A DNA stretch of 64,000 nucleotides from Eledone cirrhosa (GCA_964016885.1 OZ024740.1:132184001-132248000), one strand, 5' to 3'. Counted from the stretch's first letter, positions 17,937 to 62,180 are shown. Made by a program: numbers and translations. The notes: a model not told the origin generated them from the letters alone.

Positions 17937-19936
17937 AGTGTTGCGAAAAGCCAATAACAGCCGGTGAAATACGGGAAGCGATGGCTAACTGCACAAGAGC
18001 TAAATCGCCAGGTTTAGATGGCCTGCCCTTTGAGCTTTATGCATTTATGCCAGACTTGTTCGGTGACCTCTTGGCAGACGTCTACTGCAACTGGCAGCAT
18101 AACGGGAGCATTCGCAGTTTTGTTAGCCGGGGAGCAGTAGCGCTGCTGAGAAAAGACCCGAACAAGGGGGATGTTATTGATAATTTCAAACCCATAACTC
18201 TGCTAAACGCAGAGTTCAAGATTTGGGCCAAGGTGTTAGCAACGAGGTTGGCGCTTGTCGTCAAGGGTCTGGTGGGAGAGGCGCAGACATGCGCCATCCC
18301 AGACAGATCGATACACGACAACCTCCACTCATGCGATACATCATAGAGAGGGTGGTTAAGGAAGCTGGCAAGGGTGGGGCCCTGATCAACTTGGATCAAT
18401 CCAAAGTATTCGATAGGGTCGACCATCGGTACCTGGCGGCGGTCCTCGAGGCAGCCGGTTTCGGGCCCGTTTTCAGGCGTTGGATCGGAGCAATGTACTG
18501 ACCTCCAGATTGAGAAAAACTGGAACGAGGTGACGAGCAGGGTGGCCTCCCTCACCCAGAAGTGGGCTGAGAGGAAGCTGTCCCTGAAAGGCCGGGCAGA
18601 AGTGGCGAATGCGTACGTCGCATCCGTCATCTTCTACCGCCTCACCGTTTTCCCTTGCTCCAGCCCAACTCTCACCAAAATGGAACGCCTCCTCTTCCGC
18701 TTTTTGTGGAAGGGACGCGCTCCCATGGTCAGACGATCCATCTGCTGTCAAACTCGTTGCGTGGAGGACAGGGCATGCTATGGCTGATGATGCGCAAACA
18801 TGCGCTGAGGCTGCGACATCTCTGGTGCTTCCTTGATGGTGAACGGGTGTGGTCGCCGTTCGCCAGGCACATTTTCCCACAGCTCGTCTCCTTGACGGAG
18901 TTGCAGTCCTGGGTCAGAAAAAGACCGAGGGATAGCGCTTGGAAACTGGAATGTCTCCAGGCTCTCACTGGCCTCTCCCAGTTGGGCACCAGTATTGGTG
19001 AAACATCCACCTCGGCGTTCTATAGAGGACTAGTGGAGGGGAAGAGCGACGACGTTCTCGGAGAGATCCTGCGCGTCGAAGAAGATCAGCTGCTTGCTCT
19101 CTTCCGGAGAACTTTCAGCCCGGCGCCTATGGATAACTTCCAAAATTCCCTAGCCTGGCAGTGCTACCGGGTAGCGCTGCCGGTTCGAGATAAGCTCTAC
19201 AGGCACGGAAGTGCCGTCAGTCGAGCCTGTCCGAGATGCGCGCATAGCTACGAAACCGTTGTGAACGCACTCGTTCAGTGCCCGAGCATTGCTGACTTGT
19301 GGAGCTATGTCGAACAGTTGCTGTCACGTGTGGGACTGATCCGGTTATCGACTGAGTCCATTGTGCAGATGGTCTCGCCGTCTTCCTTTGAGGAGGAAAG
19401 GCAAGCGGTTTTCATCTGCCTGGTGGCCATGGCGAAAGAGATTGTTTGGTGGACAAGGTTAAAAGAATTAAAGACAAACACTTTCCTCTTCAGTGAATCC
19501 CTAATTAACTTTTTCAAGTTTCACTTGAAGAGGAAAATCAGGGTGGAGAGGCAAGTGCTGCTTTCTTGCAAGTTTGTTGAAAGGTGGGTGAATGTAGCGA
19601 GAATGGTCCGAGTGAATGGGACCACTCTGAATATACGTCTGTAGTTTGAGAGATGGAAAAATTGAGAGACGGCGCTTGCCCTGGTAGTCAGGGTGGCCGT
19701 AGTCTTTTGTGTGGTTTTCGCCACCAGTAACCCTCGGAGGTTTCCCCCCTATTGGGGAATATTTCATTGTTTCAATTTTCATTTTATTGTTTATATATAC
19801 ACGTATATATGTTTTATGTCTTTTCTTTTCTTATATAAATAATAAAAATATTTACACGCACAAACCCACATCGTACCGTCCTGTTCTGTCTGTGATGTTT
19901 TTCTTGATGTCAGCCCTTGTGGTCAATAAAGAAATC
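17937..19936 (+). mobile_element. Tx1-clade LINE, 5'-truncated with internal deletion (copy T1)
   Basis: KSPGLDG, KPITLLN, LDQSKVFDRV and the C-terminal CPRC..H..C finger. The region matching ~27660-28070 of the full copy (QGCPLS, YADD) is deleted at ~18498. Ends aataaagaaatc followed by (att)n. Confidence 0.9.
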
Positions 19937-19942
19937 ATTATT

Positions 19943-19990
<48 letters not shown>

Positions 19991-19992
<2 letters not shown>

Positions 19993-22900
19993 ATCTGCAT
20001 TTATCTTGCTTTATGTTCATACGAGTTATCACTAAGTCACAACCAGTGACCTCAAGAGACAACAAGGTCCGCCATGTTCAAGAAAGAACATACATACTCA
20101 CACGTTCATCTTTAGTGTTTAGACTTGTGATGTACTTATATTGACAGAATCTTCCTTAGTATATGGGCAGTTCCCATTAGTACTATATTTTGTATTTCTC
20201 CTATACGCGGGTTTCCTGGGATTTGCGATAAGTAATCATTAGACCCCTTAGGTATCATTCCTAGAGCGCCTACAACCACTGGTATTGTTTTAGTTCTCAA
20301 TTTCCACATTTTTCCAAATTCTATCTCCAGGTCCTTATACTTGCTCAATTTTTCAAATGTTTTTATTGATACATTCTTGTCTATCGGAACGGACATATCA
20401 ATTAGCAGGCATACCCTCTTTTGAAAGTCCTTCAATATTATATCAGGTCTATATGCATCTATTTTTCGGTCTGTTTGGATGCTAAAGTTCCACAAGATTG
20501 AGATGTGATATTTTTCAAGTATGGGAGGTGGTTGATGCTCCCACCAATTCTTTTGATGAGGCAGGTCAAAATGCTTACACATTATCCAATGTATGTATTG
20601 TGCAGCTCTGTCATGCCTGTTTAGGTATTCGGTTGGAGCTATAGGACTGCACATTGAAATTATATGGTCAATGGTCTCTGGTTGTTTTTTACATACACAG
20701 CATAATGGACTGCATCCATTTTGTATTATGTTGGCTTGGTAATTTTTTGTTGGCAGTCACTGAACTTGTGCTGATATAATCGGTCCTTCAGTCTCCGATT
20801 TCAGTCCAGAGGATGCCAATCACTGTTGGGTTAAAGTTTTGTCAACATCAGGATTGTTGGCTCGTTCTGGGTATTTTCCATACAGAGACTTTTCTTGCCA
20901 TTTCTTAGCCAGTTTCTGTAGCAGTTCTTTCTTTGCAGTTACTTTTACCTGATTTGCTTTTTCTGTGTTTTCCATTTCAGCAGTAAATGGGACTTCTGAA
21001 ATGTGTAGTCCATTACTGTATCTTTGTGCATCTTTTGTAATGGAGTATGATCATTTGGTGCTTTCGTGTTTCAAAACGAGTTTGATCATCCAATCATGTG
21101 ATTCCCTTAGATATGTAGATAATCCAATTGTTGCAGTTTTCAACACAATGTCTAACTGGATAAACCCACGTCCTCCTTCTTTCCTAGGGAAATATATTCT
21201 ATCTGTATCTGCCTTAGGCTGATGCATTCTGTGCATTGTTAAGACTTTTCTAATTTTTGTATCGAGCCTACGGATCTCTGTGCTTGAGCAATTGATGACA
21301 TTGTAACTGTAGGTTACTACTGGTAAGACAAGCGTGTTTATGGCATCGATCCTATTCCTTGCATTCAATTCCGTTCTTAAGATTGCTCTTACTCTGCGGT
21401 AACATTCCTTCCTTATCCTTTCCCTCATTGTCGAGTGCTTGATTCCGTCTCCTTCACAAACACCTAGATATTTGTAAGTTTCCTCTTGATCAAGTTCTCT
21501 TATCACATTCCCCCGATCAAGATTAATGTCTGAACTCTTCAACAGCTTTCCTCTGGTGAACGTTGCTTTGGCGCATTTATCTAGTCCAAACTCCATTTTA
21601 ATGTCATCACTGAACTGCTCCACAGTGGATAATAGCCCTTGCAATTGTTCATCATTTTTTGCAAATAGTTTCAGGTCATCCATGTAAAACAAATGATTAA
21701 TGGTTTTGTCATAGACTTTATATCCATGTTTTGTTTCATTGAGCATTTTACATAATGGTATAAGTGCGATGCAGAATAAAAGCGGTGATAAAGAGTCACC
21801 CTGAAAAATTCTACAATTAATATTAACTTCTCCAGCTTCCAGTGATTTTGTTTCATTATTCAAAAGGAGTGTCGTTTTCCATGTCTTCATACTGAATGAC
21901 AAAAACCTCTGACAAAGGGGGATATTTTGAAAATCTCTAAACATTTTTCAATCCAACTGTGTGGCAAACTATCAAATGCTTTTTTATAATCTATTCAAGT
22001 AATTGATAGATTTTTGTGTCTATTATGACAATCTTCCAGTATCATATTGTTAACCAAAAGCTGATCCTTACAGCCATATGAGCATCGTTTACACCCTTTC
22101 TGTTCAATGGGAAATAGGTCATATGTTATCAGGTGGTCATGTGTATATTCAGTTAGGACTGATGTTAAAATGTTATACATTGTGGTCAAGCAAGTTATCG
22201 GTCTGTAATTTTGGGGATTGTTTGTCTCATCATTCTTCGGAAGCAGGAATGAAATGCCATTAACTAGCCATGATGGTATCTTTTCTGGCTCCTTAACTAT
22301 TTCTTTGTAAAGTTGCGCTAACAGCTCATGAGACTCTGTGAAGGCATTTATCCAAAAATTTTGTATTTTGTCTTTTCCTGGGGATTTCCATTTGCTGGTT
22401 TTCTTAGAGCCAAACGCAACTTTTCAACTGTTATATTTTCCCATATTTGTTCCTCAAGGTGAGCTGTATCTTTCATTTGTCTGTCTATCCATGGGGCATG
22501 TATATTATGAACCTTTTCTTCGGCTCAGATCTTTTCCCAGAATTCTTGCACTTCCTCCTTGGGTGATATTGATTTAGCAGTTATTGTTGACTTACCAATT
22601 TTTCTGTAGAAGTTACTTTGGTTGGTTTTGAACATATTATTGTCCTTATAGAATCTAGATCGTTTTTCAAAGCGCCTTATACGAGCAGCTTTGGCCGACA
22701 CATTGTGCTTGATTATTTCTATCAGAATGTCTGTCACTTGTTGGTTTTATACTGTACGTTCTTTTCAATTTTCTAAGTTTAGTTTGTTTAACATGTTCAC
22801 CTACTTTATTGTTTCTTAAAATTTCTACGTCAGATCGGAGAGGGTTTATTTGGCGATTGATGTTCTCTTGCCAAGTAGATTTCTTGTGGGAATTCCTTTG

Positions 22901-23420
22901 TTTTTTCATCTTCACTCCACATAAGTGAGTGGTGACTTTAGCCGATGCATAATAGAGATGATTTAAATCAGTAATGTTTAGTTTGTTTGTGATGATAATG
23001 TTTTTGAGAATTATGTTAGTCTTGTGTATTATCTTTTCGTTCTGTTTGGAGTTCTGGATCTTAGGGAGGGTGTCTCGTTGCCCCATGTCAGATTCTTTCA
23101 TTTTCATCCATTCGATCATAATTTCATCCTTCAAGTTGGCAAGTTCATTCTCATTCATTTCTTTATCATTTACGATCTCATTATTTTCATTTGGGGTTTC
23201 ATCTTGAGCATGCCACTCCCTCCACTTTTTCGATCCTTTCTTTAATTTGTTCTGTTGCCAGTGATTCCGCCCCAACCCTGGAATTCGAAGTGTTACAATT
23301 TACCTCGTTTTCACTGACACATGTTTCATTTTCCCTTCGCTGACTTTGTGCTAATAGCCTGATCTGATCAATTTCTATATCAGTTAGTAACTTTTCTTTT
23401 ACAATATTTCTTCTTCTTCT
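19991..23420 (-). mobile_element. R4/Dong-clade RLE LINE, family A, decayed (copy A1)
   Basis: IFQGDSLSP, FYMDDLKL, RHD, and RPDIILKD..IDMSVP..EKLSKY (PD-D/E-K nuclease). The 3' end abuts (TAA)n at 19937-19990 and the 5' end abuts (TAT)n at 23421-23445. Many stops and frameshifts. Confidence 0.9.
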
Positions 23421-23660
23421 TATTATTATTATTATTATTATTATTGAATGCCATGGTTGACGGAGGCTCGGCTCTGTAAGGTATAGTAATTTTTAACCGT
23501 TAAAACAATTGTAAATTGTTTAAAACTTGAACCAAATTGTTGATAAAGACACCCTCCTCCTCGTGAGAGGGGTCTTTCTGTCCGTTAATTGGCCCTTCGG
23601 GGTTAAATAACCAGTTATTGGGGTTTTGTACCCAAAATTTCATTTTAAACAAAAAACAAC

Positions 23661-25761
23661 ATGGCTACGAAAAAGAAATTTCATACGTCACTCCCACTCA
23701 TTCCGTCTTCTTCTTCCTCAATCATCACTACAGCAGAGAGAAGATTGTCTCTCTCCCTCCCTTCTTTAAATGTGTCTCTCTCCCTCCCTTCTCTTTCGCA
23801 AGTGACGAAAGAAAAGAAAAGTCTCGTGCAAAGCGTGCAAGGTTTCTCCACGACGACGACGACAGCGACGAAACAGGTGTGCGGGAAATACGAAAACCCA
23901 GTTCATTCGTCTGACGTCAGGAATAATAGCAGTAGCAGCCGTAATAACAACTGCAACAGTGACAATGAAAACAACAGTAGCAGCCGCAACAGCATCACCA
24001 GCAGCATAAACAACAACAGCATTAGCAGCAGCAACACCAACAACAACCACAGCAACAGCGGCGGAGGCAGTAATCGTAGTACATGCAGCAACAACAAAAG
24101 TACCAGCAGCTCTGACGACAACAACAACAGCAGAGAAAAACCAATCTCATTTGCAGGTATTGCGAAAAACTTGGAAACAATCCTCATAACAAATGAGGAA
24201 TTAGAGGAAGCGAAGAAGATGGTGACAAAGAACGGACACCGAGCAATCTGCAAGGCAGCGGAAAAATTTTTCAAAACCCAAGAGCACTGTACGGTCACGT
24301 ACCGTACAGTAAGTACAAAATCCCGTAGGGTGGAAAGAGCCACAGAGGCCCAAATACAAAAAGCCTTGGGGTCTGTGTGGCAGCGGAAAACGCACGTCAC
24401 CCGAGGCAAAAAATATGCCACCGTAGACGTACTTTTTGCCACACCCCAGGAGGCAAAGGCCCAATCAGTAGTGACCCTAAGGAGCGAGGAAATGGTGTTG
24501 GTGCCCTCCTACTGCGGGCAAAAAATTGTGAGGGTCAAACTGACCCACGTCCCCCCCCCCCGGAATGACCCCTTCTTGGCTGGCCGCGTCTGTCCTAATC
24601 GGAATCGAGGACAAAACAACTGTACTGCAAGTACAGAAAAAAGTAAGAGAAGATTGGGTCGGCTCCTCCATTGAGATGCTAATCCAAACCAACCAGGAGT
24701 GCATCGAAGCTATCCCGGATGTGATAGACTTCGATAACGGCACTCAACTGCCCATAAGTGTTGAGGGCAAACGCCCGAAATGCTTTCGCTGTGGATCGAA
24801 GACTCACCTCAGGGCCTTCTGCAACGAGAAGACCCTGAGAAAGGAGAAAACCCCCCTCCTTCCGAATCCGGCTCCACGGCTACCAGCAACAGGACAAGCG
24901 GCAACCAGGAACGATAGGTCCGTGGCACCCATACCCACGCCACGGAAATCAAAAACAGCAGCAGCAGTGGAAATATTAACAACAACAACAGCAATACCAA
25001 ATGCAGCTGCAACAGAGACTCCAGTGCAAACATCACCAACAACAACAAGTGAAAGAGTGGAGCTGGTACCCCTCCCCTACCTCACAGAATCAGACATGGA
25101 GTGTGAGGTGGGAGAGGGATGGCAAAAGGTCGCAAGAAGGCACAAACGCAGAAGCAGCGCATCGTCGCCTTTGAAAAGGGAGGAAAGAAATGAGAAAAGG
25201 GTAAAGTCTACTGCAAAGAGACCCACAGCAGCAACAACACCAACACCATCACCACCCACACTAGCACCACCATCACCACCGGCGACAACCCCACCGCCAA
25301 CAACACCTTCAACACCACCACCACAAGCACCAACATCTCAAACACAACAACAAAACACACACACCCAGCAACAACGACAAGAAAATAGCAGAACCACACC
25401 CCACCCCCAGAAAAACAAATGCACGGCAATAAATACACACAACAAGAAACTAATGACTTACATAATTGAACACACAGACATTTCACAACAGGACTACATA
25501 ATACCAGCACCAATCAAAACGCCAACTAACATAAGACTGCTAAAAATAGCACAGAAACAATACACAGACATTAAAACGAAATTCCCCAACGCAGTTGGTG
25601 ATTTCAGGGACCTAGGAGGAACCATCAATCGAAGAGTATACTCAGACATTCTCTTAGAAGAGCCGACGACCAGCCGAAGGGACGATTCAACGGTCCCTTC
25701 ACCAGACGATCAAGTGAAAAGGGATGTAAAAACCATCCCTCCTCTACCAAAAGTACGGTAA
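23661..25761 (+). CDS. Tx1 ORF1 (gag-like protein with CCHC knuckle and Pro/Thr-rich tail), split by one extra C in a C11 run at 24551-24561
   Basis: ORFs 23661-24674 and 24565-25761 join as ...THVPPPGMTPSW if one C is removed; CFRCGSKTHLRAFC is CX2CX4HX4C. Confidence 0.8.
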
Positions 25762-25796
25762 GTGGTCTTTCCCATCTTTTCCACTCTATTTTAAAC

Positions 25797-28700
25797 ATGA
25801 CCTCACTCAGAATAGGCAGCATAAATGCGCGTGGCTTGGGGTCGTCATGGAAGCAGGGTCACCTGCTCAACGACCTCAGGTCACTAAACATAGATGTAGT
25901 GGCCATCAGCGAGACCAGAATCTCCGAAGCACGGGCCTTCGTACCGATCTTCGGCGGCTACGATGTGTACGCATCTCCCAGCCGTCCTGGATCGGGTGGA
26001 GGAGTTGCTGTGCTTTTTCGGAGAGGTTTGGATCTCGCCATACGGGCCATCTTCCTGGACCCAGAGGGTAAGCTGGTGGTGCTGGACGTGACCAGCGGAG
26101 ACGGGCAAGCTTTCAGGCTAGTGGCCGTCTATGCCCCGACAGGAGCAGGGCGGCCTGATTTCTTCCGGCGTCTGGAGACCTTTCTTGGAACGTCCCGCTC
26201 TTTAGTGTTAGTGGGCGACTGGAACGGGATCTTAGATGCACGCTGGGACTGTGTGGGATTAGCGGATAGGGGTGGAGGGTGCAAGAGCCTCACCAACCTG
26301 CTCAGGCGTTTTGAACTGTCTGACAGGTACCGATTGGATTTCCCGAATGTGCCAATGTGGACTTGGACAAACCGCATAGGGTCATCCAGATCATATCTAG
26401 ATAGAGTATTTTGTAGGGAAATAGATAGGTCTAGCATAGGCTGTCCACAATTCAAGATAGTCAGCTACACGGACCACAAATTCGTGATCTGTGTGCTTGA
26501 CTTAGATAGGCTTCATAGACGAGGACCCGGCTACTGGAAGCTAAACGCGTCCTTACCAGCGCGCAAGGCCTACAGAGACCGGATTAGCGAACTAGTTAAG
26601 CGGGCGTTGACGGGGGCCATCGTCAACAACAAGTGGTGGTTTGCTCTGAAAAGAGCGATTAGAATAGAATCGATTAGGTTTAGTAAGGCTTTAGCAATAG
26701 AGAAAAATAGAGCAGAGGGAGAACTAGTTAGAAAATTAGACGAGGCGCTTAGCAAAGGCATTGCGACCGACGTGCTTGCGGCGAAATTGGCCCTTGACCA
26801 ATTCTTCAATGCAAAGCACGAAGGCTGCGTTGTCAGAGCTAGGGTGCGTGCTCTCAGACACGAGGGGACGAAAGCCGTTCAATGGGCCCGAGTGGCGGAG
26901 GCGCGTCGTGGCAACAAAGCCACGATCCGGTCTTTGGTGGACCACGACGGGCGCATGCTACTCGATCCCGGGCAAATGTGTGAAACTTTTCAGCGACACT
27001 TCGCTCAGCTGTTCGGGGGCAGCGGGGGGCCGGGTAGAGGGATGGACTTTAGTGTCTACCTCGACGGACTGCCGCGGCTCTCGGCCACTGAGGCGAAGTG
27101 TTGCGAAAAGCCGATAACAGCCGCTGAAGTAAGGGAGGCAATGACTGGCTGCACAAGGGGTAAATCGCCTGGTTTGGATGGTCTGCCCTATGAACTTTAC
27201 GTACAGATGCCAGACTTGTTCGGAGGCCTCTTGGCGGACGTCTACTGCAACTGGCAACAGAACGGGAGAATTCCCAGTTCTGTGAGCCGAGGAGCGGTGG
27301 CACTGCTGAGAAAGGATCCGAACAAGGGGGATAACATAGACAATTTCCGGCCCATAACTCTGCTAAACACAGAGTTTAAGATTTTGGCCAAGGTGCTAGC
27401 AAAGAGGTTGGCGCTTGTCGTTGGTGGTCTGGTGGGAGAGGCGCAGACATGCGCCATTCCCGACAGATCCATCCACGACAACCTCCACCTCATGCGATAC
27501 ATCGTAGAGAGGGTAGCTAGGGAACCTGGCACGGGTGGGTCCTTGATCAATTTAGATCAGTCGAAAGCTTTCGATAGGGTCGACCATCGTTACCTAGCGG
27601 CAGTCCTGAGGGCGGCTGGCTTTGGGCCCGTCTTCAGAGGCTGGATCGCTGCCATGCACAGCGACATCTGCTCTGTGGTGAGAGTGAACGGTCACCTGTC
27701 GGAACCGTTCAACATCATGCGCTCGGTCCGCCAAGGATGTCCCCTCTCGTCCCTCTTGTACGTATTGACTCTCGAGCCATTACTGCACAAACTGGAGACG
27801 TTGAGGGGGGTCCCGCGCGAACTAGGATGCGGAAGATCCGTATCAGCATATGCGGACGATGTCACCGTAGTGGTGTCGAACGCCAAACACATCGAGGCGA
27901 TCGGCACTACACTAAGAGAATACGAAGCGGTGACAGGAGCAATGATCAACCAGGAAAAGTCAGTGGGCCTGCAGCTCGGCACCTGGAGAGGCAGGTCCAT
28001 GCCGTCCAACAGCGTCGTCGGACGCTGGACGGACGGACCGGTTAAATTGCTAGGGGTCTGGTTCGGTCCGGACCTCCAGACGGACAAAAACTGGGACGAG
28101 GTGACGAGCAGGGTGGCTTCTCTCACCCAGAAATGGGCCGAGAGGAAGCTATCCCTGAAAGGTCGAGCGGAGGTGGCTAACGCGTACATCGCGTCCGTCA
28201 TCTGCTACCGCCTGACCGTCGTACCTTGTCCTAAGCCTCGCCTGACTGTGCTGGAGCGTTTGCTCTTTCGCTTTTTGTGGAAGGGACGCGCTCCGATGGT
28301 CAGGCGGTCCATCTGCTGTCAACACCCGCTACGTGGAGGGCTGGGCATGCCGTGGCTGATGATGCGCAGGCACGCGCTCAGGCTACGACATCTCCACCTC
28401 TTCCTCGACGGTGATCAGGTGTGGTCGCCGTTTGCTAGACGCGTGTTTCCCCAGCTCGTTTCCTTGACGGAGCTGCAGTCCTGGGTCAAGCGAAGACCGA
28501 GAGGGAGCGCCTGGAGACTGGAACGTCTTCAGGCGCTCACAGCCCTCGACCAATCGGGCAATGTGATCGGTGGAAACTCCACCTCGGCGTTCTATAGAGG
28601 ATTAGTGGAGGGGAAGAGCGACGACGTACTTGGGGAAACTCGAGGCGTCGACGAAAATCAACTAGCCAATCTCTTCGGAAGAACTTTCGGGCCAGGGCCT

Positions 28701-29216
28701 ATGGACAACTTCCAGAAATCTCTGGCCTGGCAGTGCTACCGAGGAGCCTTGCCAGTTCGGGATAAACTCTACAGGCATGGAGGTGCCGTCAGCCGGGCAT
28801 GTCCGAGATGCGCGCAGGGCGACGAAACCGTCCTGCACGCACTCGTCCAGTGTCCGAAAATTGCTGACTTGTGGGTTTATGTCGAACACCTGCTGTCGCG
28901 TTTAGGACGGATCCGGCTATCATCTGAGTCCATCGTGAGGATTGCCCCGCCCTCCTCCTTTAGCCGGGAAGGGCAGGCAGTTTTTATCTGCCTGGTGGCC
29001 ATGGCGAAAGAGATAGTATGGTGGACACGTTTGAAAGGGCTGAAGACGAGCACTTACCTCTTCGGTGATGCTCTGATTGACTTTTTCAAATTTCATTTGA
29101 AAAGGAAAATCAGAGTAGAGAAGGAAGTGCTCTCTTCCCAGCATTTTGTTGAAAGATGGGTGAGAGAAGCAAGAATGGCCCGAGTGAATGGGCCGACTCT
29201 GAGTATATATCTGTAA
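25797..29216 (+). CDS. Tx1 ORF2: APE endonuclease, reverse transcriptase and C-terminal zinc finger (1139 aa, uninterrupted)
   Basis: APE motifs SINARGL, ISETR, VGDWN, SYLDRVF, TDH; RT motifs KSPGLDG, RPITLLN, LDQSKAFDRV, RQGCPLS, YADD; zinc finger CPRCAQGDETVLHALVQC. Confidence 0.95.
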   Translation: MTSLRIGSINARGLGSSWKQGHLLNDLRSLNIDVVAISETRISEARAFVPIFGGYDVYASPSRPGSGGGVAVLFRRGLDLAIRAIFLDPEGKLVVLDVTSGDGQAFRLVAVYAPTGAGRPDFFRRLETFLGTSRSLVLVGDWNGILDARWDCVGLADRGGGCKSLTNLLRRFELSDRYRLDFPNVPMWTWTNRIGSSRSYLDRVFCREIDRSSIGCPQFKIVSYTDHKFVICVLDLDRLHRRGPGYWKLNASLPARKAYRDRISELVKRALTGAIVNNKWWFALKRAIRIESIRFSKALAIEKNRAEGELVRKLDEALSKGIATDVLAAKLALDQFFNAKHEGCVVRARVRALRHEGTKAVQWARVAEARRGNKATIRSLVDHDGRMLLDPGQMCETFQRHFAQLFGGSGGPGRGMDFSVYLDGLPRLSATEAKCCEKPITAAEVREAMTGCTRGKSPGLDGLPYELYVQMPDLFGGLLADVYCNWQQNGRIPSSVSRGAVALLRKDPNKGDNIDNFRPITLLNTEFKILAKVLAKRLALVVGGLVGEAQTCAIPDRSIHDNLHLMRYIVERVAREPGTGGSLINLDQSKAFDRVDHRYLAAVLRAAGFGPVFRGWIAAMHSDICSVVRVNGHLSEPFNIMRSVRQGCPLSSLLYVLTLEPLLHKLETLRGVPRELGCGRSVSAYADDVTVVVSNAKHIEAIGTTLREYEAVTGAMINQEKSVGLQLGTWRGRSMPSNSVVGRWTDGPVKLLGVWFGPDLQTDKNWDEVTSRVASLTQKWAERKLSLKGRAEVANAYIASVICYRLTVVPCPKPRLTVLERLLFRFLWKGRAPMVRRSICCQHPLRGGLGMPWLMMRRHALRLRHLHLFLDGDQVWSPFARRVFPQLVSLTELQSWVKRRPRGSAWRLERLQALTALDQSGNVIGGNSTSAFYRGLVEGKSDDVLGETRGVDENQLANLFGRTFGPGPMDNFQKSLAWQCYRGALPVRDKLYRHGGAVSRACPRCAQGDETVLHALVQCPKIADLWVYVEHLLSRLGRIRLSSESIVRIAPPSSFSREGQAVFICLVAMAKEIVWWTRLKGLKTSTYLFGDALIDFFKFHLKRKIRVEKEVLSSQHFVERWVREARMARVNGPTLSIYL

Positions 29217-29497
29217 ACTAAAGGTGGAAAACTGGGAGAGGGCACTTGCCTTGGTGGTCAGGGTCATTGTGGCTTTTTACTGGGCTTTCTCCACAAATGT
29301 CCCTCCGAAGTCTCCCCCCTATTGGGGAATTTTTCATTGTTATTTTCATTGTTATTTTTGTTACATCCTCTGTTTTTGTTTTTTTACACGCAGAAATGCC
29401 CATTTGTACTGTCCTGCATTGTCCTGCACTGTCCTTAATGTCTACTTTATGTAAACCCTTGTGGTTAATAAAGAAATCATTATTATTAATATTATTA

Positions 29498-29559
<62 letters not shown>

Positions 29560-32500
29560 GGCGACCTACGTAGTAAATCGTATCATCGTGAGCTCCGCAA
29601 AGGTTTGTTATTTCCGTTTGTTAAAAATTGACATTTATTGAAACATTTTATTGTTAACTGTTTATAAGCGCACATACATTGTTTTCCGAAAAGGACACCC
29701 AAAAAGATTGGGGCCTTGTGACCAAAATTTAAACTTTTATTATTATCAAAAAATTTCTTTAAAAAAAATGGCTAATTCACCTCTGCACGAAGCAGCTGAA
29801 AGCCTTCATCACAAATTAACACCTCACACCGACACCACCATTGTAAATGTTACTACGTTTGCCAACACAAAAAAAAATATAAGCAGTAGCAATATTTTAA
29901 ATTTGTCTCAGGCAGACATTCATTTCCCGCCATTACCAATGACTGCAGGTGTTAAAGCCTCCACCACCACCACCACCGCGACAACCACCACCACCACCAC
30001 CACCACCACCACCACCACCACCACCAACGCGACAACAGAAACAATAGAAAAAACAAATAAATTAACTCGTGATGTCGAAATGAAATCAAGCAAAATGGAC
30101 TCTTCCCCACCAAAGACGACTGACGTCACCACCACCACAACTGAAACTAAAATTAATATTAACACAAATAACGATAGCAACAACAACAACAATGACATTA
30201 TAAAACCGACCCTCAGTTTCGCCATAGTAGCAAAACAGTTCGAAGCATTCACGGTAACTAAGGAGGATTTAGAAAATGCCAAACAAATGGTAATGAAAGA
30301 TGGGTACAGGAGATCCCAGAGGTAATAGACCTCACTGACGACAGCCACCTTACGGTAATTGTCGAGGGCAGAAGACCTAGGTGTGTCGTTTGTGGTGAAG
30401 GAACCCACCTAAGGGCTTTCTGCCCTCAGGCTAAAAGGTTGAGGCCACCTCTCCTACCCACCCCAGTGACACAACCATCAACACCACCAGTAGCAGAGAT
30501 GGCAGCAACAACTGTAGCAGCAACAACAGAAGCAACTATAACAGCAACAACCCCAGCAACAGTAGCAAAACCAACACCACCACCACCACCAGCAAAACCA
30601 ACACCACCACCACCCAACGCTTCAGAACTAGCACCAGCGCCTACACCATCCACCACGCCACAACCAAACCTAACGCCTGTGGAGGATTTTCCACTCCCCG
30701 GCCTATCACAACTGGAGACAGATTGTGACGATGAGGAGTGGGAAACGATATCCGGAAAAAAAAAGAAACCAAAAAAAAAAAATTCTCATCCTTCCCCCTC
30801 CAAATACAAAATACAGAGGGAAACAAATAAATTAGGAAACAAAAAAGTTAGGACAGATATACCACCATCCACACCAGCATCACCAACCCCATCAACCAAA
30901 ACACCATCACCATCACCATCATTAACCCCAACACCACCATCACCTACATCACAAAAGTCACGAAAATGCGAAACAGAAACAAACCCACAACAAACGCAAA
31001 CAAAACAAAACAACCAAAACGATACACACTACACAGCATTAAATTTGAACAACAAGCAATTATTACACTACATCCAACACAACACCAGCATCACAGAAAA
31101 AGACTACGCAACAACCCCAAAATTCACACCACCTCCACACATGCAAATCACTCGCATCACACAGAAAACGTACATGACACTCAAACAAAAATTCCCCTAA
31201 GACATCGGAGACTTCTGACAAGCACTCTCCAGGAGGATTTATAAGGGCATCCTTCCTGAGGAGGCCACAAGCAGTGAAAAGGATGGAAAAACCGTCCTTC
31301 CCCTACGAGAAGTAAGGTAAGTGGTCTTTCCCATCTTTTCCACTCCTTTCAACTCAGAATAGGCAGCATAAATGCGCGTGGCTTGGGGTCGTCATGGAAG
31401 CAGGGCCACCTGCTCAACGTCCTCAGGTCACTAAACATAGATGTAGTGGCCATCAGCGAGACCAGAATCTCCGAAGCACAGGCTTTCGCACCGATCATCA
31501 GCGGCTACGATGTGTACGCATATCCCAGCCGTCCGGGATCGGGGGGAGGAGTTGCTGTGCTATTTCGGAGAGGTTTGGATCTTGCCATACGGGCCATCTT
31601 CCTGGACCCAGAAGGTAAGTTGGTGGTGCTGGACGTGACTAGTGGAGACGGCCAAGCTTTCAGGTTAGTGGCCGTCTATGCCCCGACAGGAGCAGGGCGG
31701 CCTGATTTCTTCCGGCGTCTGGAGATCTTTCTTGGAACGTCCCTCTCTTTAGTGTTAGTGGGCGACTGCAACGGGATCTTAGATGCACGTTGGGATTGTG
31801 TGGGATTAGTGGATAGGGAAGGAGGGTGCAAGAGTCTCACCAACCTGCCCAGACGTTTTGAACTGTCTGACAGGTACCGAATGGATTTCCCGAATGTACC
31901 AATGTGGACTTGGACAAATCGCATAGGGTCATCCAGATCATATCTAGATAGAGTATTTTGGTAGGAAAATAGATAGGTCTAGCAGAGGCTGTCCACAATT
32001 CAAGATAGTCAGCTACACGGACCACAAAGTCGTCATCTGTGTGCTTGACTTAGATAGGCTTCATGGGCGAGGACCCGGCTACTGGAAGCTAAACGCGTCC
32101 TTACCCGCGCGCAAGGCCTACAGAAACCGGATTAGCGAACTAGTTAAGCGAGCGTTGACGGGGGCCATCGTCAACAACAAGTGGTGGTTTGCTCTGAAAA
32201 GAGCAATTAGAATAGAGTCCATTAGGTTTAGTAAGACTTTAGCAAATGAGAAAAATAGAGCAGAGGGAGAACTAGTTAGAAAATTAGATGAGGCGCATAG
32301 CAAAGGCATCGCGACTGACGTATTTGCGGCGAAATTGGCCCTTGACCAATTCTTCAATGCAAAGCACGAAGGCTGCGTTGACAGAGCTAGGGTGCGTGCT
32401 CTCAGACACGAGGGGACGAAAGCCGTTCAATGGGCCCGAGTGGCGGAGGCGCGTCGTGGCAACAAAGCCACGATCCGGTCTTTGGTGGACCACGACTGGC

Positions 32501-34198
32501 GCATGCTACTCGATCCCGGGCAAATGTGTGAAGCATTTGCGACACTTCGCTCAACTGTTCGGACCAGTGGCGGGCCGGATCGAGGGATGGACTTTAGTGT
32601 CTACCTCGACGGACTGCCGCGGCTTTCGGCCACTGAGGCGGAGTGTTGCGAAAAGCCGATAACAACCGCTGAAGTACGGGATGCAATGACTAGTTGCACA
32701 AGGGGTAAATCGCCTGGTTTGGATGGTCGGCCCTATGAACTTTACGTACAAATGACAAACTTGTTCGGAGGCCTCTTGGCGGACGTCTACTGCAACTGGC
32801 AACAGAACGGGAAAATTCCCAGCTCTGTGAGCCGAGGAGCGGTGGCGCTGCTGAGAAAGGATCCGAACAAGGGGGATAACATAGATAATTTTAGGCCCAA
32901 AACTCTGCTAAACACAGAGTTCAAGATTTTGGCCAAGGTGCTAGCAAAGAGGTTGGCGCTTGTCGTTCGTGGTCTGGTGGGAGAGGCACAGACATGCGCC
33001 ATTCCTGACAGATCCATCCACGACAACCTCCACCTCGTGCGATACATCGTAGAGAGATTAGCTAGGGAACCTGGCACGGGTGGGTTTTTGATCAATTTAG
33101 ATCAGTCGAAAGCCTTCGATAGGGTCGACCATCGTTACCTAGAGGCAGTCCTGAGGGCGGCTGGCTTTGGGCCCGTCTTCAGAGGCTGGATCGCTGCCAT
33201 GCACAGCAACATCTGCTCTGTAGTGAGAGTGAACGGTCACCTTTCGGAACCGTTCAACATCATGCGCTCGGTCCGCCAAGGATGTCCCCTCTCGTCCCTC
33301 TTGTACGTATTGACTCTCGAGCCATTACTGCACATGGGGATTAGTGGAGGGGAAGTGCGACGACGTACTTGGAGAAACTCTAGGCGTCAACGAAAATCAA
33401 CTAGCCAATCTCTTCGGAAGGACTTTCGGGCCGGGGCCTATGGACAACTTCCAGAAATCCCTGGCCTGGCAGTGCTACCGGGGTGCTTTGCCAGTTCGCG
33501 ATAAACTTTACAGGCATGTAGGTGCCGTCAGCCGGGCATGTCCGAGATGCGCACAGGGCGACGAAACCGTCCTGCACGCACTCGTCTAATGTCCGAGCAT
33601 TGCTGACTTGTGGGTTTATGTCGAACACCTGCTGTCACGTGTAGGACGGATCCAGCTATCAGCTGAGTCCATCGTGAGGATTGCCCCGCCCTCTTCCTTT
33701 AGCCGGAAAGGGCAGGCAGTTTTTATCTGTCTGGTGGCCATGGCGAAAGAGATAGTATGGTGGACACGTTTGAAAGGGCTGAAGACGAGCACTTACCTCT
33801 TCGGTGATGCCCTGATTAACTTTTTCAAATTTCATTTGAAAAGGAAAATCAGGGTAGAGAGGGAAGTGCTCTCTTCCCAGCATTTTGTTGAAAGATGGTT
33901 GAGAGAAGCAAGTATGGCCCGAATGAATGGGCCTTCCCTGAGTATGTGTCTGTAAACTAAAGGTGGAAAATTGGGAGAGGGCACTTGCCCTGGTGGTCAG
34001 GGCCACTGTGGTCTTTTAATGGGCTTTCTCCACAAATGTCCCTCGGAAGTCTCCCCCCTGTTGGGGAATTTTTCTTTGTTATTTTATTTCATCCTCTGTT
34101 TTTTTTACACGCTGAAATGCCCATTTGTACCGTCCTGTATTGTCCTGTACTGTCCTTAATGTCTACTTTATGTAAACCCTTGTGGTTAATAAAGAAAA

Positions 34199-34199
<1 letters not shown>
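29560..34199 (+). mobile_element. Tx1-clade LINE with a different 5'UTR/ORF1 and a defective ORF2 (copy T3)
   Basis: ORF1 remnants at 29768-30325 and ~30360-31320 (VEGRRPRCVVCGEGTHLRAFC). ORF2 DNA is near-identical to T2, but the start codon region is lost, there is a frameshift at ~31960, and ~810 bp are deleted at ~33335. Ends aataaagaaaac + (att)n. Confidence 0.9.
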
Positions 34200-34236: not shown

Positions 34237-37200
34237 CTCTTTGAGTCTCAGTCATTGATGTTAGTTAACTAGAAAGTTTGTTGAGATGAATATCAAGCCA
34301 CTACCTATTCAGGACGTATCGGAGGGTTCTTGCTGTTCCAAGCAAGCATGCCTTTTGAAGCGTTCCAAAAAGCGTGAAGGGGCCAATTTTCTTTAACCAT
34401 CCCTGGAAACATTTTGAGATAGTCCCTAGTGCGCCTTTGACAATCGGGATCACTTTGACTTCATGGCAGTTCCAAATCCTTTTACCTCCCACTTTAAGTC
34501 CTGTGTTCCAATTTCTTGTCCGTCTGTATCGTAAAATCCCACAGCACCTTCACCTGGTCGTTTTCTATCACCGCCTCTGGCTTATGCTCATACCACTTCT
34601 CAGAATGTGGTAAATTGTTTACTTTGCACAGGTGCCTGTGGATCACCCTGCCCATCACATCATGTCTCCAGCCCTTATAGTGAGTCTGGGCTAGTTGTTT
34701 AAACTCGGATACAATGTGAGCCACAGTCTTCTCTCTCTCTCTCCACAGATCCTGCACAGTGGGCTAGCCTCCTCCTTATAAATATGGTGTTTCAACCACT
34801 TCGTTTTGAGGGCCTGCTCCTGCGCAGCCATTAACATTCCTTCTGTAGCCTTTTTAAGGTCTCCTCTTTTCAACCAGTTGCATGTCTGTGGATCTCTAAA
34901 TTCAGTTTTCCCAAAGAAGGTACTATGAAGGGATTTTTCCTGAAGGCTGCTCTTTCTCCTTGATGTTATTTCCTCCTTGGACATCCCCTGGCCTAATGAC
35001 CCCTCCTTCAGTACAGTTCTGAGCATTGGCTCCTTACTATCAGTCACGTATTTGTGTAGGTTGTTTTTCTCCATCTGAACACAGTCCTCTATGCTGATAA
35101 GACCGCTTCCACCCTCAGATCTCCTTAAGTAGAGTCTATCGACATCACTCCTCTTGTGGAACATATTGTAGATAGCCAATAGCTTCCTAGTCTTCCTATC
35201 CATTTCCTTTTGTTCAGCAACATTCCATCTCAAAATTCCCGCACTGTACCTAATAATAGACACAGCTCGGGAATTTACTGCACTTATGGCGTTCCTACTG
35301 TTCAGATGTGACTTTAATACGCTCCTTACTCTCCGAAGGTATTCAGTTCTTATCAATTCCTTCATCTTTTTGTTATTGATGTCATCATCCTTCAGAATGC
35401 CCAAATACTTGTATCCTTCCTCAGAGTCAATTTCTTTTATCATCTCACCTGTTAGTATCTGGATTCCGTTACTTCTGCTCAACTTACCCCTCTTCATCAC
35501 AATGACTCCACACTTACTAATACCAAATTGCATACATATATCATTGCTGAAAATACGGAGTGTCAACAAGCACAACCAACTCCTTCTCACTCTTCCAGAA
35601 GTGCTTAAGATCGTCCATGAAGAGGAGGTGATTGATGGTAAGCCCTCCCTTTCCCAACCCGTATTCTGCACTCACTTTTCGCAGTACACTGGTCAGGGGC
35701 ATCAGGGCAAGGACAAACAACAGAGGGGACAGACTATCTCCCTGGAAGATACTTCTCTTGATCTTCACGCTTCCCAAGGATTCTCCAGTTGATGTTAACT
35801 CTGTTTCCCAGGACTTCCTACTTTTGCCCAACAACTGCCTGATGTTATCTGCCACCTTGAAGATCTCCAGGCTTTTGGTGATCCAAGTATGAGGCACCAT
35901 ATCAAATTCCTTTTTGTAGTCTATCCATCCCATGGAAGACCAGTGTGTCTCCTCTTGCAATTCCTCATTACCATCTTATCAATAAGTAACTGGTCCTTTG
36001 TACCACGTGACTTCTTTCAGCATCCTTTCTGTTCGCCCGGCAACAAGTTGTTTGTGTGGAGGTGATGGTAGATTTCATCAGACATAATGCTTGTCAACAG
36101 TTTCCACATTACGGACAGACATATGAGAGGTCTATAGTTGGTAACATCATTTCCTTGATTCGGTCTTTCATCATCAGAACTGTTGTACCTTTTGTCAACC
36201 ACTCTGGCACCTCACCTGACATCAAGCAGTCATTGAACATGGTTGTCAGTTTCGGGTGGAGGGATGTTATGTTTTTAATCCATAACCCCTGCACACCATC
36301 TGGGCCAGGTGATTTCCAGTTGGTTAGTTTTTTGGCCTGCCCCTTAAGAGTTTCAACTGTGATACTCAAATCAGTTTGTTGGCGTGCCTGTTCACTGATC
36401 TCCTTCTGTACTGTCGCAATCCACACTGCCAGGTCATTATGTTTAACATCCTGCCCCCATATTCCTCTCCAGAATGTTTTAGTTTGTTCCGCCTCAGGGA
36501 TCAAGTCGTTGCTTCTTTCTTTCCCTTCAAGCTGTCCAAACAGCATCTTCTGGTTGTTGTCGAACATGCGGTTCTGTCTATACTGGCTGACTCTGTTCTC
36601 ATATCGCCTGATTTTTGCACTCTTTGCTACAATGCGTTGCTTCAGTTCCTCTATGATAATATTTAGCTTTTTCCTCCTAGTTTTGTACTTTATTTCCAGT
36701 CTATTTTTAGTGTCTATCTTTTTTAGTGTCCCATTCTGTAGGGACTCAAGCTTTCCAATGTCATTTCTCATTTCCCTGATTTGACCACTCAGTCGTTTCT
36801 TCCAACAAGGCTCTGCTCTTTCTTGTCTGTTGTTTCCTCTCGCTTTTATACCAAGTAGTTTCCTCACCGTATTTGCTGTTGCTTTGAGGATATTGTTGCA
36901 CTGGTGAAGGTTCCTCGCCTCAAGGTATGGGATGACTTTGTTTACCTTAGCTGTTGTTTCTTTTAACTGTTCCTGTCTACAAATCTTAGGTTCATAGGTC
37001 TCCCACTATCATTGTTCAATTCATCTACCACTAAGTTTAGGATATCTACCAAATTGTGTCCAAGCCCGTCAGCATTCATCTCCTCAGTGGCCGTATATCT
37101 GTTCCATGTATTATTTATCTCAGCATTCAGATCATTGTCTGTTTCGGGTGGTTCCTCCGTTCTCTCGACCTCTTCACCTTCATTTCCCACTGGCTCGTTT

Positions 37201-37903
37201 GCCTGGCATACTCCACCCTCCATCTCCAAGCTAATCTCTCTGCCCAGTTCCTCCAGTTCCAGCTCGCTTATCCACCCATTAGTTCTTATTACCCGAGCCT
37301 GCCCGGCCAGTTTTTGTTCATCTAATTTAAATGGACCAATCTCGTTCCAGATGTTATGCATCCTTTTCCTATAGCCTTTCTCCATGGGGTTACTCTTCAG
37401 GTAACATTTCATAACAGTTCTATTCAATTCTTTCGTCCTGTTGGTTCTGGACCCTTTCCTTCTTCTTCTTCCTCCGACACCAGCAGTATTTGTTTGACAG
37501 CCAGGTCCCTGCTGCTGAGCCAGGGAGCACCTGTTGGGTGAGAGTCTGTGACATGACATTCTAGTCTCCATTTCACCGTTATTCGAACTGTTTAGGTTCG
37601 ACATTTAAACACTCTTATCGAGGATTGGCGAATGTAACATAACCACCGGTGAATTACTTGTCTCCGGTGGTTTCGTCACTCCACGTGACTTTTGTGTGGC
37701 ATTATCACGCTGTAGACGAACCCAAACAAACAAACAAACAAACAGGCAGAAAAAAACCCAAAAATGAATAAGCATAAGTTTCATTGTAATGTAGTGTTTG
37801 AATGTCTGACTGAGTTTTTCCCTTCCCTTCTCTGTCCATCCGTTTGTTTTTTCTCTTCATTTTTATTTCCTTTACGTTTTTCGTTGTTGCTGTGCTGCTT
37901 TGA

Positions 37904-37910
<7 letters not shown>
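34237..37910 (-). mobile_element. R4/Dong-clade RLE LINE, family B, near full-length but decayed (copy B1)
   Basis: ORF fragments span 37604 to ~34284 (KSPGPDG, FQGDSLSP, FMDDLK, CRIC, RHD). A ~120-bp deletion at ~34503 removes the PD..D nuclease motif. (TAA)n at both ends. Confidence 0.9.
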
Positions 37911-37949
<39 letters not shown>

Positions 37950-37957
37950 GTTGTTAT

Positions 37958-40429
37958 TCCTTGAATCTCAGTCATTGATGTTGGTTAACTGGAAAGTCCG
38001 TTGGATTGAATATCAAGCCACTACCTTCAGCCTCAGATATTCAGGACGTATCGGAGGGTTCTTGCTGTTCCAAGCAAGCATGCCTTTTGAAGCGTTCCAA
38101 AAAGCGTGAAGGGGCCGATTTTCTTTAACCATCCCTGGAAACTTTTGGAGATAGTCCCCAGTGCGCCTATGACAATCGGGATCACTTTGACTTCATGGCA
38201 GTTCCAAATCCTTTTCACCTCCCACTTTAGGTCCTGGTATCGGTTAATTTTCTCCCTCTCCTTCTCTTGCACTCTCGTGTCGAACGGGCAGGCCACATCC
38301 ACAATCAGACACGATCTTTTTTCTTTGTCCACAACCACCAGGTCAGGTCAATTGTGTTCCAGTTTTTTGTCCGTCTGTATCCTAAAATCCCACAGCACCT
38401 TCACCTGATTGTTCTCCATCACCGCCTCTGGCCTATGCTCATACCATTTCTCAGAATGTGGTAAATTGTTTACTTTGCACAGGTGCCTGTGGATCACCCT
38501 GCCCATCACATCGTGTCTCCAGCCCTTATAGTGGGTCTGGGCTAGGTGTTTACACTCGGACACAATGTGAGCCACAGTCTCCTCTCTCTCTCCACAGATC
38601 CTGCACAGTTGGCTAGCCTCCACCTTGTAGATATGGTGCTTCAACCACTTCGTTTTGAGGGCCTGCTCCTGCGCAGCCATTAGCATTCCTTCTGTAGCCT
38701 TTTTGAGGTCTCCTCTTCTCAACCAGTTCCATGTCTGTGGATCTCTAAATTCAGTTTTCTCAAAGAAGGTACTATGAAGGGATTTTCCCTTAAGGCTGCT
38801 CTTCCTCCTTGATGTTATTTCCTCCTTGGACATCCCCTGACCTACTGTCCCCTCCTTCAGTACAGTTCTGAGCATTGGCTCCTTACTATAGGTCACGTAT
38901 TTGTATAGGTTGTTTTTCTCCATCTGAACACAGTCCTCTATGCTGATAAGACCTCTTCCACCCTCAGATCTCCTTAGGTAGAGTCTATCGACATCACTCC
39001 TCTTGTGGAACATGTTGTAGATAGTCAATAGCTTCCTAGTCTTCCTATCCATTTCTTTTTGTTCAGCAACATTCCATCTCAGAATTCCCGCACTGTACCT
39101 AATAATAGACACAGCTCGGGAATTTACTGCGCTTATGGCATTTCTGCTGTTCAGATGTGACTTCAATACGCTCCTTACTCTTCTAATGTATTCAGTTCTT
39201 AACAATTCCTTCATTTTTTTGTTCTTTATGCCATCAGCCTCCAGAACGCCCAAATACTTGTATCCTTCCTCAGAGTCAATTTCCTTTATCATCTCACCTG
39301 TTGGTATCTGGATCCCGTTACTTCTGCTCAACCGACCCCTCTTCATCACAATGACTCCACATTTACCAATACCAAACTGCATACATATATCACTGCTGAA
39401 AATACGGACAGTGTCAACAAGCACATCCAACTCCTTCTCACTTTTCCCGAAGAGCTTAAGATCGTCCATGAAGAGGAGGTGATTGATGGTAAGCTCTCCC
39501 CTTCCCAACTTGTATCCTGCTCTCACTTTTCGCAGCATAATGGTCAAGGGCATCAGGGCAAGGACAAACAACAGAGGGGACAGGCTATCTCCCTGGAAGA
39601 TACCTCTCTTGATCTTCACGCTTCCCAAGGATACTCCAGTTGATGTCAACTCTGTCTCCCAGGACCCCATACTCCTGCCCAGCAACTGTCTGATGTTATC
39701 TGCCACCCTGAAGATCTCCAGGCTTTTGGTGATCCAGGAATGAGGCACCATGTCAAATGCCTTTCTGTAGTCTATCCATCCCATGGCAAGATCAGTGTGT
39801 CTCCTCCTGCAATTCCCCATTACCATCTTATCAATAAGTAACTGGTCCTTTGTACCACGTGACTTCTTTCGGCATCCTTTCTGTTCGTCCGGTAACAAGT
39901 TGTTTGTGTGGAGGTGATGGTAGATTTCCTCAGACACAATGCTCGTCAACAGTTTCCACATTACGGACAGACATGTGATAGGTCTATAGTTGGTAACATC
40001 ATTACCCTTGATTCGGTCTTTCATTATCAGAACTGTGGTACCTTTTGTCAACCACTCTGGCACCTCACCCGACACCAAGCAGTCATTGAACATGGCCGTC
40101 AGCTTCGGGTGGAGGGATGTTAAATGTTTAATCCAATACCCCTGCACACCATCTGGGCCTGGTGATTTCCAGTTGGTTAGTTTTTGGCCTGCCCTTTAAG
40201 AGTTTCAACTGTGATACTCAAATCAGTTTGTTGTTGTGCCTGCTCACCGATCTCCCTCTGTACTGTCTCAATCCACCCTGCCTGGGCATTGTGTCTAACA
40301 TCCTGCTCCCATATTCCTCTCCAGAATGTTTTAGTTTGCTCCGCCCCAGGGATCAAGTCGTTGCCTCTTTCTTTCCCCTCAAGCTGTCCAAACAGCATCT
40401 TCTGGTTGTTGTCGAACATGCGGTTCTGG

Positions 40430-40430
<1 letters not shown>
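37958..40430 (-). mobile_element. R4/Dong-clade RLE LINE, family B, 5'-truncated (copy B2)
   Basis: 599-aa RT ORF at 40147-38348; a premature TGA sits just before the PD motif; flanked by (TAA)n. Confidence 0.92.
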
Positions 40431-40469
<39 letters not shown>

Positions 40470-42635: not shown

Positions 42636-42677
42636 ATTATTATTATTATTATTATTATTATTATTGTTATTGTTATT

Positions 42678-47140: not shown

Positions 47141-47204
<64 letters not shown>

Positions 47205-57812: not shown

Positions 57813-57899
57813 GTGTTACAAATCGCTCTTGTATTGAACCTCCGATATTTATACTAACCAATATCTTTGTGGGCTGGTTAGTTCTTGTCTACCTACAGT

Positions 57900-60877: not shown

Positions 60878-62180
<1,303 letters not shown>

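What the first reader, a model, noticed from the sequence alone, without database searches (positions are those of the whole stretch)
23446..29478. Potentially active Tx1 family that appears specific for (ATT)n
Seen: an intact 1139-aa ORF2. Both copies with 5' ends start immediately after (ATT)n, and all three end AATAAAGAAA(T/A)C followed by (ATT)n with no poly(A). Known: sequence-specific Tx1 families include Kibi (TC)n, Koshi (TTC)n, Keno (U2), Mutsu (5S) and Dewa (tRNA spacers). I do not recall a mollusc (ATT)n-specific one, but cannot check databases. Inference: an APE endonuclease with a possibly new microsatellite specificity, of interest for targeted insertion.
Basis: partly seen in the sequence, partly recalled or inferred. 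Interest (0 to 1): 0.75.

Follow-up and report, generated by a model that had tools for sequence, protein, structure and literature searches.

The report
Young retrotransposon that targets ATT microsatellites
This is one copy of a young, very abundant jumping-gene family, in what is likely an octopus-group genome, that lands in pre-existing ATT repeats in one fixed direction, likely because its enzyme cuts the opposite (AAT) strand; repeat-seeking relatives are known, but this target was not found in the papers searched.

Summary
Observation confirmed and extended. Window 23446-29478 is a 6.03-kb L1/Tx1-type APE retrotransposon. Its ORF2 is intact (1139 aa) but its ORF1 is frameshifted; 16 of 54 aligned full-length copies have both ORFs whole, and young copies differ by about 1%.

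Genome-wide, 1610 of 1655 exact 5' ends (97%) follow (ATT)3 in one phase. 7060 of 9671 3' ends are followed by (ATT)3, and only 8 places have an A-run. Empty paralogous sites already hold (ATT)7-16, so ATT is a target, not only a self-made tail. Two imperfect sites show 16- and 19-bp duplications starting at ATT, implying a T|A nick on the AAT strand.

Against strictness: only 10 of 22 truncated copies abut ATT. Whether the endonuclease or RNA-tail pairing selects the site is unresolved, because the 5' ATT lies inside the target duplication. Tx1 membership is likely but my tree did not resolve it.

No ATT-specific Tx1 turned up in 9 paper searches; Repbase, Dfam and two key papers were unavailable. 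The scan reported this same system before on seven other stretches of this genome. A new member of a known kind.

The parts
23420..23445 (+). 5' flank (ATT)8, target microsatellite; inferred to include the target-site duplication
23446..23660 (+). 5' UTR, module A; fixed start GAATGC after ATT
23661..25761 (+). ORF1 (698 aa in intact copies; RRM-like region plus one CX2CX4HX4C knuckle); frameshifted here at the C11 run 24551-24561
25797..29216 (+). ORF2, 1139 aa: APE endonuclease (N10, E39, Y112, D141, N143, D202, H227 present), RT (YADD 685-688), C-terminal CCHC zf-RVT
29217..29478 (+). 3' UTR with AATAAA at 29467-29472, ending GAAATC; no poly(A)
29479..29559 (+). 3' flank (ATT)27 with two interruptions; target and landing site of the next copy
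29560..34199 (+). Second copy: same ORF2/3' UTR lineage (92-94%), different 5' module B, internal deletion of about 0.8 kb, broken frames
17937..19945 (+). Older sister-family copy, 5'-truncated and internally deleted, 80-84% identical, followed by (ATT)n
19992..23419 (-). Dong/R4-like RLE retrotransposon (family B), 5'-truncated, in the same microsatellite on the opposite strand
   Evidence: R4/Dong label from RT + CCHC + PD..D/ExK-like motif, recalled
34237..46610 (-). Four further Dong/R4-like copies separated by (ATT)n runs at 37909, 40432 and 42636

Best explanation
A young, high-copy L1/Tx1-type non-LTR retrotransposon that sits in pre-existing (ATT)n microsatellites in one orientation, likely placed there by target-primed reverse transcription after its APE endonuclease nicks the (AAT)n strand at a T|A step. 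Inferred steps: the freed end (...AAT-3'OH) primes at the element's last bases, probably helped by pairing with a few AUU repeats read through from the donor's flank, which would explain the missing poly(A). A second nick some 15-19 nt downstream on the ATT strand would give the fixed ATT|G start and a duplication that leaves a fresh target on both sides, so copies pile up with Dong-like elements that use the other strand. Shown: target, orientation, phase, empty sites, two duplications, youth. Inferred: nick positions, the endonuclease as main selector, the RNA's 3' end, present activity.
For: 1610 of 1655 exact module-A 5' ends follow (ATT)3. The 4 exceptions read still lie in short or interrupted ATT. 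30 of 30 sampled module-B 5' ends follow (ATT)3. Flanks are heterogeneous: 22 distinct among 30 loci. Empty paralogues hold the repeat: 19 empty U1-array units with (ATT)7-9 against two filled units 1.06% apart, and L155 with about (ATT)16 against L060-62. Duplications start at ATT with no added tail: 16 bp at L244, 19 bp at L235 and about 11 bp at L073 (read by eye). (AT)n arrays outnumber (ATT)n 38 to 2 outside the cluster yet are not the usual flank. Catalytic residues are intact. Shared ORF2 changes are 30 synonymous to 11 non-synonymous. Isolated Tx1L endonuclease nicks almost only its own target (PMC1950540 passages).
Against: Only 10 of 22 truly 5'-truncated copies abut ATT; 7 are fused head-to-head to a reversed Dong copy, 2 abut CTT or ACT repeats, 3 other sequence. 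27% of 3' ends lack a perfect (ATT)3. Targets as short as ATTAT(T) are used (L235, L241/242). The 5' ATT lies within the duplication, so it cannot separate endonuclease choice from RNA pairing. The specificity hairpin has 9 residues between the anchors, aligning without a gap to promiscuous human L1, whereas the grafted Tx1L loop needs extra residues. In about a dozen full-length copies (counted by eye) an interruption within the first five 3' repeats is not duplicated at the 5' side. No transcript was seen.
Confidence: 0.6

Rival explanations
1. Same element and same target, but the selector is mainly RNA-DNA pairing: a relaxed, L1-like T|A-nicking endonuclease cuts widely and only nicks whose 3' end pairs with an (AUU)n RNA tail are extended, as proposed for RTE elements.
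For: No poly(A): 8 distinct places among 9671 3' ends have A9 within 30 nt. L1-length hairpin. Two-repeat targets work. Tail-guided priming is proposed for RTE, and base pairing is reported to aid I, R1Bm and R2Ol (PMC6007223 passages).
Against: At the three informative imperfect sites no extra repeat was copied from a tail. Two old copies with possible poly(A) relics are still followed by ATT arrays (L229, L232; weak). Tx1L specificity resides in its endonuclease.
Confidence: 0.3
2. The clustering comes mostly from tandem duplication, recombination and survival in harmless repeat piles, not from targeting.
For: Some neighbours are near-identical (L038/L039 0.15%, L060-62 0.03-0.08%). 13 of 30 upstream flanks are another Tx1-type 3' end. 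Two tandem pairs share a duplicated 42-nt spacer.
Against: Other neighbours differ at family level (L045/L046 0.88%, L041/L042 1.06%). 17 of 30 flanks are other sequence. The phase is fixed in 97%. Single insertions occur in otherwise empty paralogous arrays.
Confidence: 0.06
3. The element carries ATT at both of its own ends and inserts at random.
For: Fewer than half of truncated copies abut ATT directly.
Against: Empty sites already hold (ATT)n. 10 of 22 truncated copies abut ATT against a background under 0.2%. In 7 of 7 Dong-fused cases the interrupted Dong does not continue behind the element.
Confidence: 0.02

Closest known systems
Kibi (TC)n, Koshi (TTC)n and crocodilian Tx1 families on (TTCC)n/(TTTC)n (PMC4494074: passages and parts 2-3 of the text; PMC3812793: passages)
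   Same: APE-type Tx1-clade elements described as inserting specifically into a microsatellite.
   Different: Target here is (ATT)n, in an invertebrate. RT is only 35-42% identical to vertebrate proteins of the TX1/YTX2-named clade and forms its own lineage.
Dong, DongAg, DongBg on (TAA)n (PMC3812793 passage)
   Same: Same trinucleotide repeat; Dong-like copies share the arrays in this window.
   Different: Dong is an R4-clade element with a restriction-like endonuclease (recalled; the review lists it among APE types) and lies on the opposite strand. RT identity 26%.
Xenopus Tx1L (PMC1950540 passages)
   Same: Two-ORF APE element with a sequence-specific target.
   Different: Tx1L targets the Tx1D transposon and has a longer specificity hairpin; this family's loop is L1-length.
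SART1Bm on (TTAGG)n (PMC7265360 abstract) and RTE tail-guided insertion (PMC6007223 passages)
   Same: Repeat-targeted TPRT in which repeat number or the RNA tail affects priming.
   Different: Other clades (R1, RTE). SART1Bm needs a long poly(A), which is absent from inserted copies here.
Octopus L1-Tx1 and Dong-R4 annotations (PMC13282606: part 1 and passages; PMC9115989, PMC8967140, PMC10294476: passages)
   Same: Report L1-Tx1 and Dong-R4 in cephalopods; 13 recently active L1-Tx1 families in O. vulgaris.
   Different: No target preference is given in the passages read. Whether this family is among them was not checked.

Membership tests
L1 group non-LTR retrotransposons | ORF2 with N-terminal APE, RT and C-terminal CCHC | tested here: met
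   best solved RT relative is human L1 ORF2p, 105 bits against 80 for R2
L1 group non-LTR retrotransposons | 5' truncation and target-site duplication | tested here: met
   22 truncated copies among 100 3' ends; 16- and 19-bp duplications
L1 group non-LTR retrotransposons | 3' poly(A) tail (usual, recalled) | tested here: not met
   8 distinct places of 9671 have A9 within 30 nt; three of them are slippage of the element's own A-run
Tx1 clade | RT groups with named Tx1 elements | tested here: inconclusive
   RT 36-40% identical to three TX1/YTX2-named proteins against 28-34% to plant and algal L1-type proteins, but the quick tree leaves the backbone open and gives no clade with them
Tx1 clade | Type I ORF1 (RRM plus CCHC knuckle) rather than Transposase_22 | tested here: met
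   CX2CX4HX4C in ORF1; Atlas hits are CCHC/ZCCHC3-RRM clusters at 0.88-0.93; Pfam itself finds neither domain; criterion from PMC5203782 passages
Sequence-specific Tx1 families | One sequence type in more than 20% of flanks (criterion of PMC4494074) | tested here: met
   97% of exact 5' ends, 73% of 3' ends, 10 of 22 truncated 5' ends
Sequence-specific Tx1 families | Endonuclease nicks the target selectively | not testable with these tools
   needs a nicking assay
Kibi/Koshi lineage | (TC)n or (TTC)n target | tested here: not met
   target is (ATT)n; CTT occurs only as a minor neighbour
Kibi/Koshi lineage | Phylogenetic placement with Kibi/Koshi | not testable with these tools
   no named Kibi or Koshi sequence came up
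Dong (R4 clade) | Single ORF with C-terminal restriction-like endonuclease | tested here: not met
   two ORFs, N-terminal APE

The most novel reading that the evidence does not exclude
An undescribed octopod lineage of L1/Tx1-type elements that has dropped poly(A) priming, reads the (AAT)n strand with an L1-sized endonuclease loop, and has converged with the unrelated Dong nuclease on one microsatellite from the opposite strand. With sister families reported by other scan notes on (GATA)n, it would be a natural series of recent target switches in which the selecting residues or RNA tail can be mapped by swaps.
Probability: 0.4. Interest if true: 0.65.

Novelty: new member of a known kind. Interest (0 to 1): 0.45.

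Why it matters
It adds a target, (ATT)n, to the short list of APE-type microsatellite specificities and shows convergence with Dong on the same repeat. It offers many intact, near-identical copies for assaying an open question: whether endonuclease or RNA-primer pairing sets microsatellite targeting. With at least 9671 3' ends it is also a sizeable force in this genome, building multi-kilobase retrotransposon chains and entering a U1 snRNA array. As a targeting tool it is weak, since ATT repeats are dispersed and two-repeat sites are sometimes used.

Tried and rejected
No RNA holder listed; this is no evidence on expression. Laying contigs of coded organisms B, C, D and G showed cover of 27-30 of 30 bins of the element, but neither lay showed flanks, because repeats are cut, so target conservation across species is untested. 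The 3' UTR fold is no better than shuffles (z -0.45). The sequence look-up in earlier findings was blank. The careful tree did not finish; only the quick tree is used. Kojima and Fujiwara 2004 and Christensen 2000 are not held; supplements of PMC4494074 could not be read and its Fig. 3, which lists Tx1 targets, is a picture, so a published ATT/TAA Tx1 target could hide there. Paper searches returned nothing; others returned no ATT-specific Tx1 in listings or passages read. Measuring the duplication from interrupted repeats in full-length copies was inconclusive, because later mutation could explain the interruptions. Single-ATT 3' flanks (L052, L097, L102, L108) were not used as proof of a short tail, since later insertions can make them. 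Window 46614-47140 first looked like a reversed Tx1 5' end after (AAT)n; it matches a different repeat family and is no exception to the orientation rule. No structure was predicted.

Full report
Observation. The element spans window 23446-29478 on the + strand. ORF2 (25797-29216, 1139 aa) has APE, RT and zf-RVT domains. By alignment to human L1 endonuclease the catalytic residues are all present. It starts after (ATT)8 and ends AATAAAGAAATC-(ATT)n. The two other Tx1-type copies in the window end the same way and none has poly(A). ORF1 of this copy is split by a C11 run at 24551-24561 where intact copies have C7. The copy at 29560 has a different 5' module and aligns only from element position 2268; its ORF1 is 52% identical to module A's over 225 aa. 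The copy at 17937 is an 80-84% identical sister.

Surroundings. Window 17.9-46.6 kb is a chain of three Tx1-type copies on + and five Dong/R4-like copies on -, separated by (ATT)n runs. The Dong label rests on RT, CCHC and a recalled restriction-like motif. The nearest named RT relative is from Argonauta hians (74%), so the host is likely an octopod.

Family size and age. Exact patterns give 1655 module-A 5' ends, 1687 module-B 5' ends, 2993 young-type 3' UTRs and 9671 3' ends of the wider family. I fetched 36 of the 40 best 5' hits, a sample biased to the youngest. Among 54 aligned full-length copies, 26 have ORF2 whole and 16 have both ORFs whole; most young copies differ by about 1%. In 25 intact ORF2s, changes shared between copies are 30 synonymous to 11 non-synonymous (830 and 2587 sites), and private ones 64 to 83. 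This fits recent spread from working masters; present activity is inferred.

Is ATT a target? 1610 of 1655 module-A ends follow ATTATTATT in one phase. The four exceptions I read still sit in short or interrupted ATT. 30 of 30 module-B ends, the first listed on one contig, follow (ATT)3. Upstream flanks vary: 22 distinct among 30 loci, 13 of the 30 being another Tx1-type 3' end. Background is 0.0003-0.0016 per position, and (AT)n arrays outnumber (ATT)n 38 to 2 outside the cluster. Empty sites settle it. Two copies lie in units of a 2.67-kb U1 snRNA array; the 19 empty units seen hold (ATT)7-9, five with one interruption. The two filled units differ by 1.06%, each being closer to copies elsewhere, so they are likely independent. 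L155, an empty paralogue of L060-62, holds about (ATT)16.

Truncated copies, the weaker side. Of the first 100 young 3' ends on contig C1, 39 pair by coordinates with exact 5' ends and 61 were read. These 61 were 27 module-A copies with 5' ends (26 ending ATT, one ATA), 9 module-B copies, 3 internal fusions and 22 truncated copies. Of the 22, nine abut ATT and one is duplicated at an ATT-ATT inside (ACT)n. Seven are fused head-to-head to a reversed Dong copy, two abut CTT or ACT repeats, and three abut other sequence. In none of the seven does Dong continue behind the element, and 9 of 27 module-A copies have internal deletions. Later deletion across the junction is therefore a plausible cause, but it is not shown.

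The 3' junction. 7060 of 9671 ends are followed by NC(ATT)3. Among the first 100 listed I found 19 misses by eye. Of the 15 newly fetched, 12 begin with ATT and 3 with a one-base variant followed by ATT. Only 8 distinct places have A9 within 30 nt: three are slippage of the element's own A-run, and two (L229, L232) could be poly(A) relics 12-15 nt after AATAAA. Imperfect sites reveal duplications: 16 bp at L244, 19 bp at L235 and about 11 bp at L073 (by eye). Each starts at ATT directly after the element's last C, with nothing added. This places the first nick at a T|A step on the AAT strand, taking the element to end at C. In full-length copies, interruptions in the first five 3' repeats are mostly not duplicated; later mutation or a different 5' joining could explain it.

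Mechanism. Most likely TPRT: APE nicks 5'-AAT|AAT-3'; the primer starts at the element's end, perhaps pairing with read-through AUU; a second nick on the ATT strand gives the ATT|G phase and a duplication that renews the target. The 5' ATT lies within that duplication, so genomic flanks cannot tell endonuclease selection from RNA pairing. For the endonuclease: isolated Tx1L endonuclease is specific (PMC1950540 passages) and no tail repeats were added at three informative sites. For pairing: no poly(A), an L1-length hairpin, short targets, and the RTE precedent (PMC6007223 passages). I put these at 0.6 and 0.3.

Classification. RT is 36-40% identical to three TX1/YTX2-named proteins and 28-34% to plant and algal L1-type proteins. 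The quick tree (71 rows) joins it to the Argonauta protein (100) and to an unnamed group (99) but leaves the backbone open. ORF1 is of the RRM/CCHC type associated with Tx1. So it works like Kibi or Koshi, belongs to the L1 group, is probably Tx1, and is not shown to be in the Kibi/Koshi lineage.

Novelty. Tx1 targets named in what I read are Tx1D, U2, (TC)n, (TTC)n, (TTCC)n/(TTTC)n and several transposons (PMC4494074); Mutsu (5S) and Dewa (tRNA spacer) are named as zebrafish target-specific elements in PMC3706591. (TAA)n is credited to Dong only (PMC3812793). Cephalopod repeat papers list L1-Tx1 without targets in the parts read. Nine searches gave no ATT-specific Tx1. Repbase, Dfam, two primary papers and one figure with supplements were out of reach. 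The scan's own notes describe this system on seven other stretches of the genome and mention GATA-targeting sisters; I saw them after forming my reading and did not test the sisters.

Verdict. Real, young and ATT-targeted; a new member of a known kind; interest 0.45.

Noticed in passing
window 19992-23419 and 34237-46610 (- strand): Five Dong/R4-like copies of two families share the ATT runs, always on the opposite strand to the Tx1-type copies.
   Followed up: partly
window 29560-31270; Two abundant 5' UTR/ORF1 modules (1655 and 1687 exact ends) sit on one ORF2 lineage, switching at element position 2268; this suggests 5' module exchange.
   Followed up: partly
L185 1945-2108; G000 C2:169.42-169.46 Mb, C2:180.97-181.00 Mb, C1128: Tandem array of U1 snRNA genes (2.67-kb unit); each unit carries what looks like a LINE 3' fragment ending in (ATT)9, which is the landing site in two units.
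   Followed up: partly
window 57393-57823; 3' flanks of L032, L037, L082, L101: An abundant tRNA-like SINE is bordered by ATT repeats at both ends in the same orientation as the Tx1-type element; a possible passenger.
   Followed up: no
L038/L039 and L112/L113: Two tandem pairs have an interrupted 42-nt repeat spacer duplicated on both sides of a copy; unequal crossover or a long duplication.
   Followed up: partly
L125, L142, L144: Truncated copies with inverted sequence at the 5' junction (reverse-complement repeat, 8-nt inversion, inverted ORF2 piece), as in twin priming.
   Followed up: no
window 46614-47521: Piece of another abundant repeat family (1138 candidates) with a 56-bp direct repeat at 47089-47144 and 47466-47521 around an (ATT)20 run; type not determined.
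   Followed up: partly
window 53612-54166 and 61391-61861: Two ORFs that look like GIY-YIG/Penelope-type endonuclease fragments (recalled resemblance, not searched).
   Followed up: no
Close relatives of the element occur in runs of many coded organisms; contigs of four laid runs cover 27-30 of 30 bins.
   Followed up: partly
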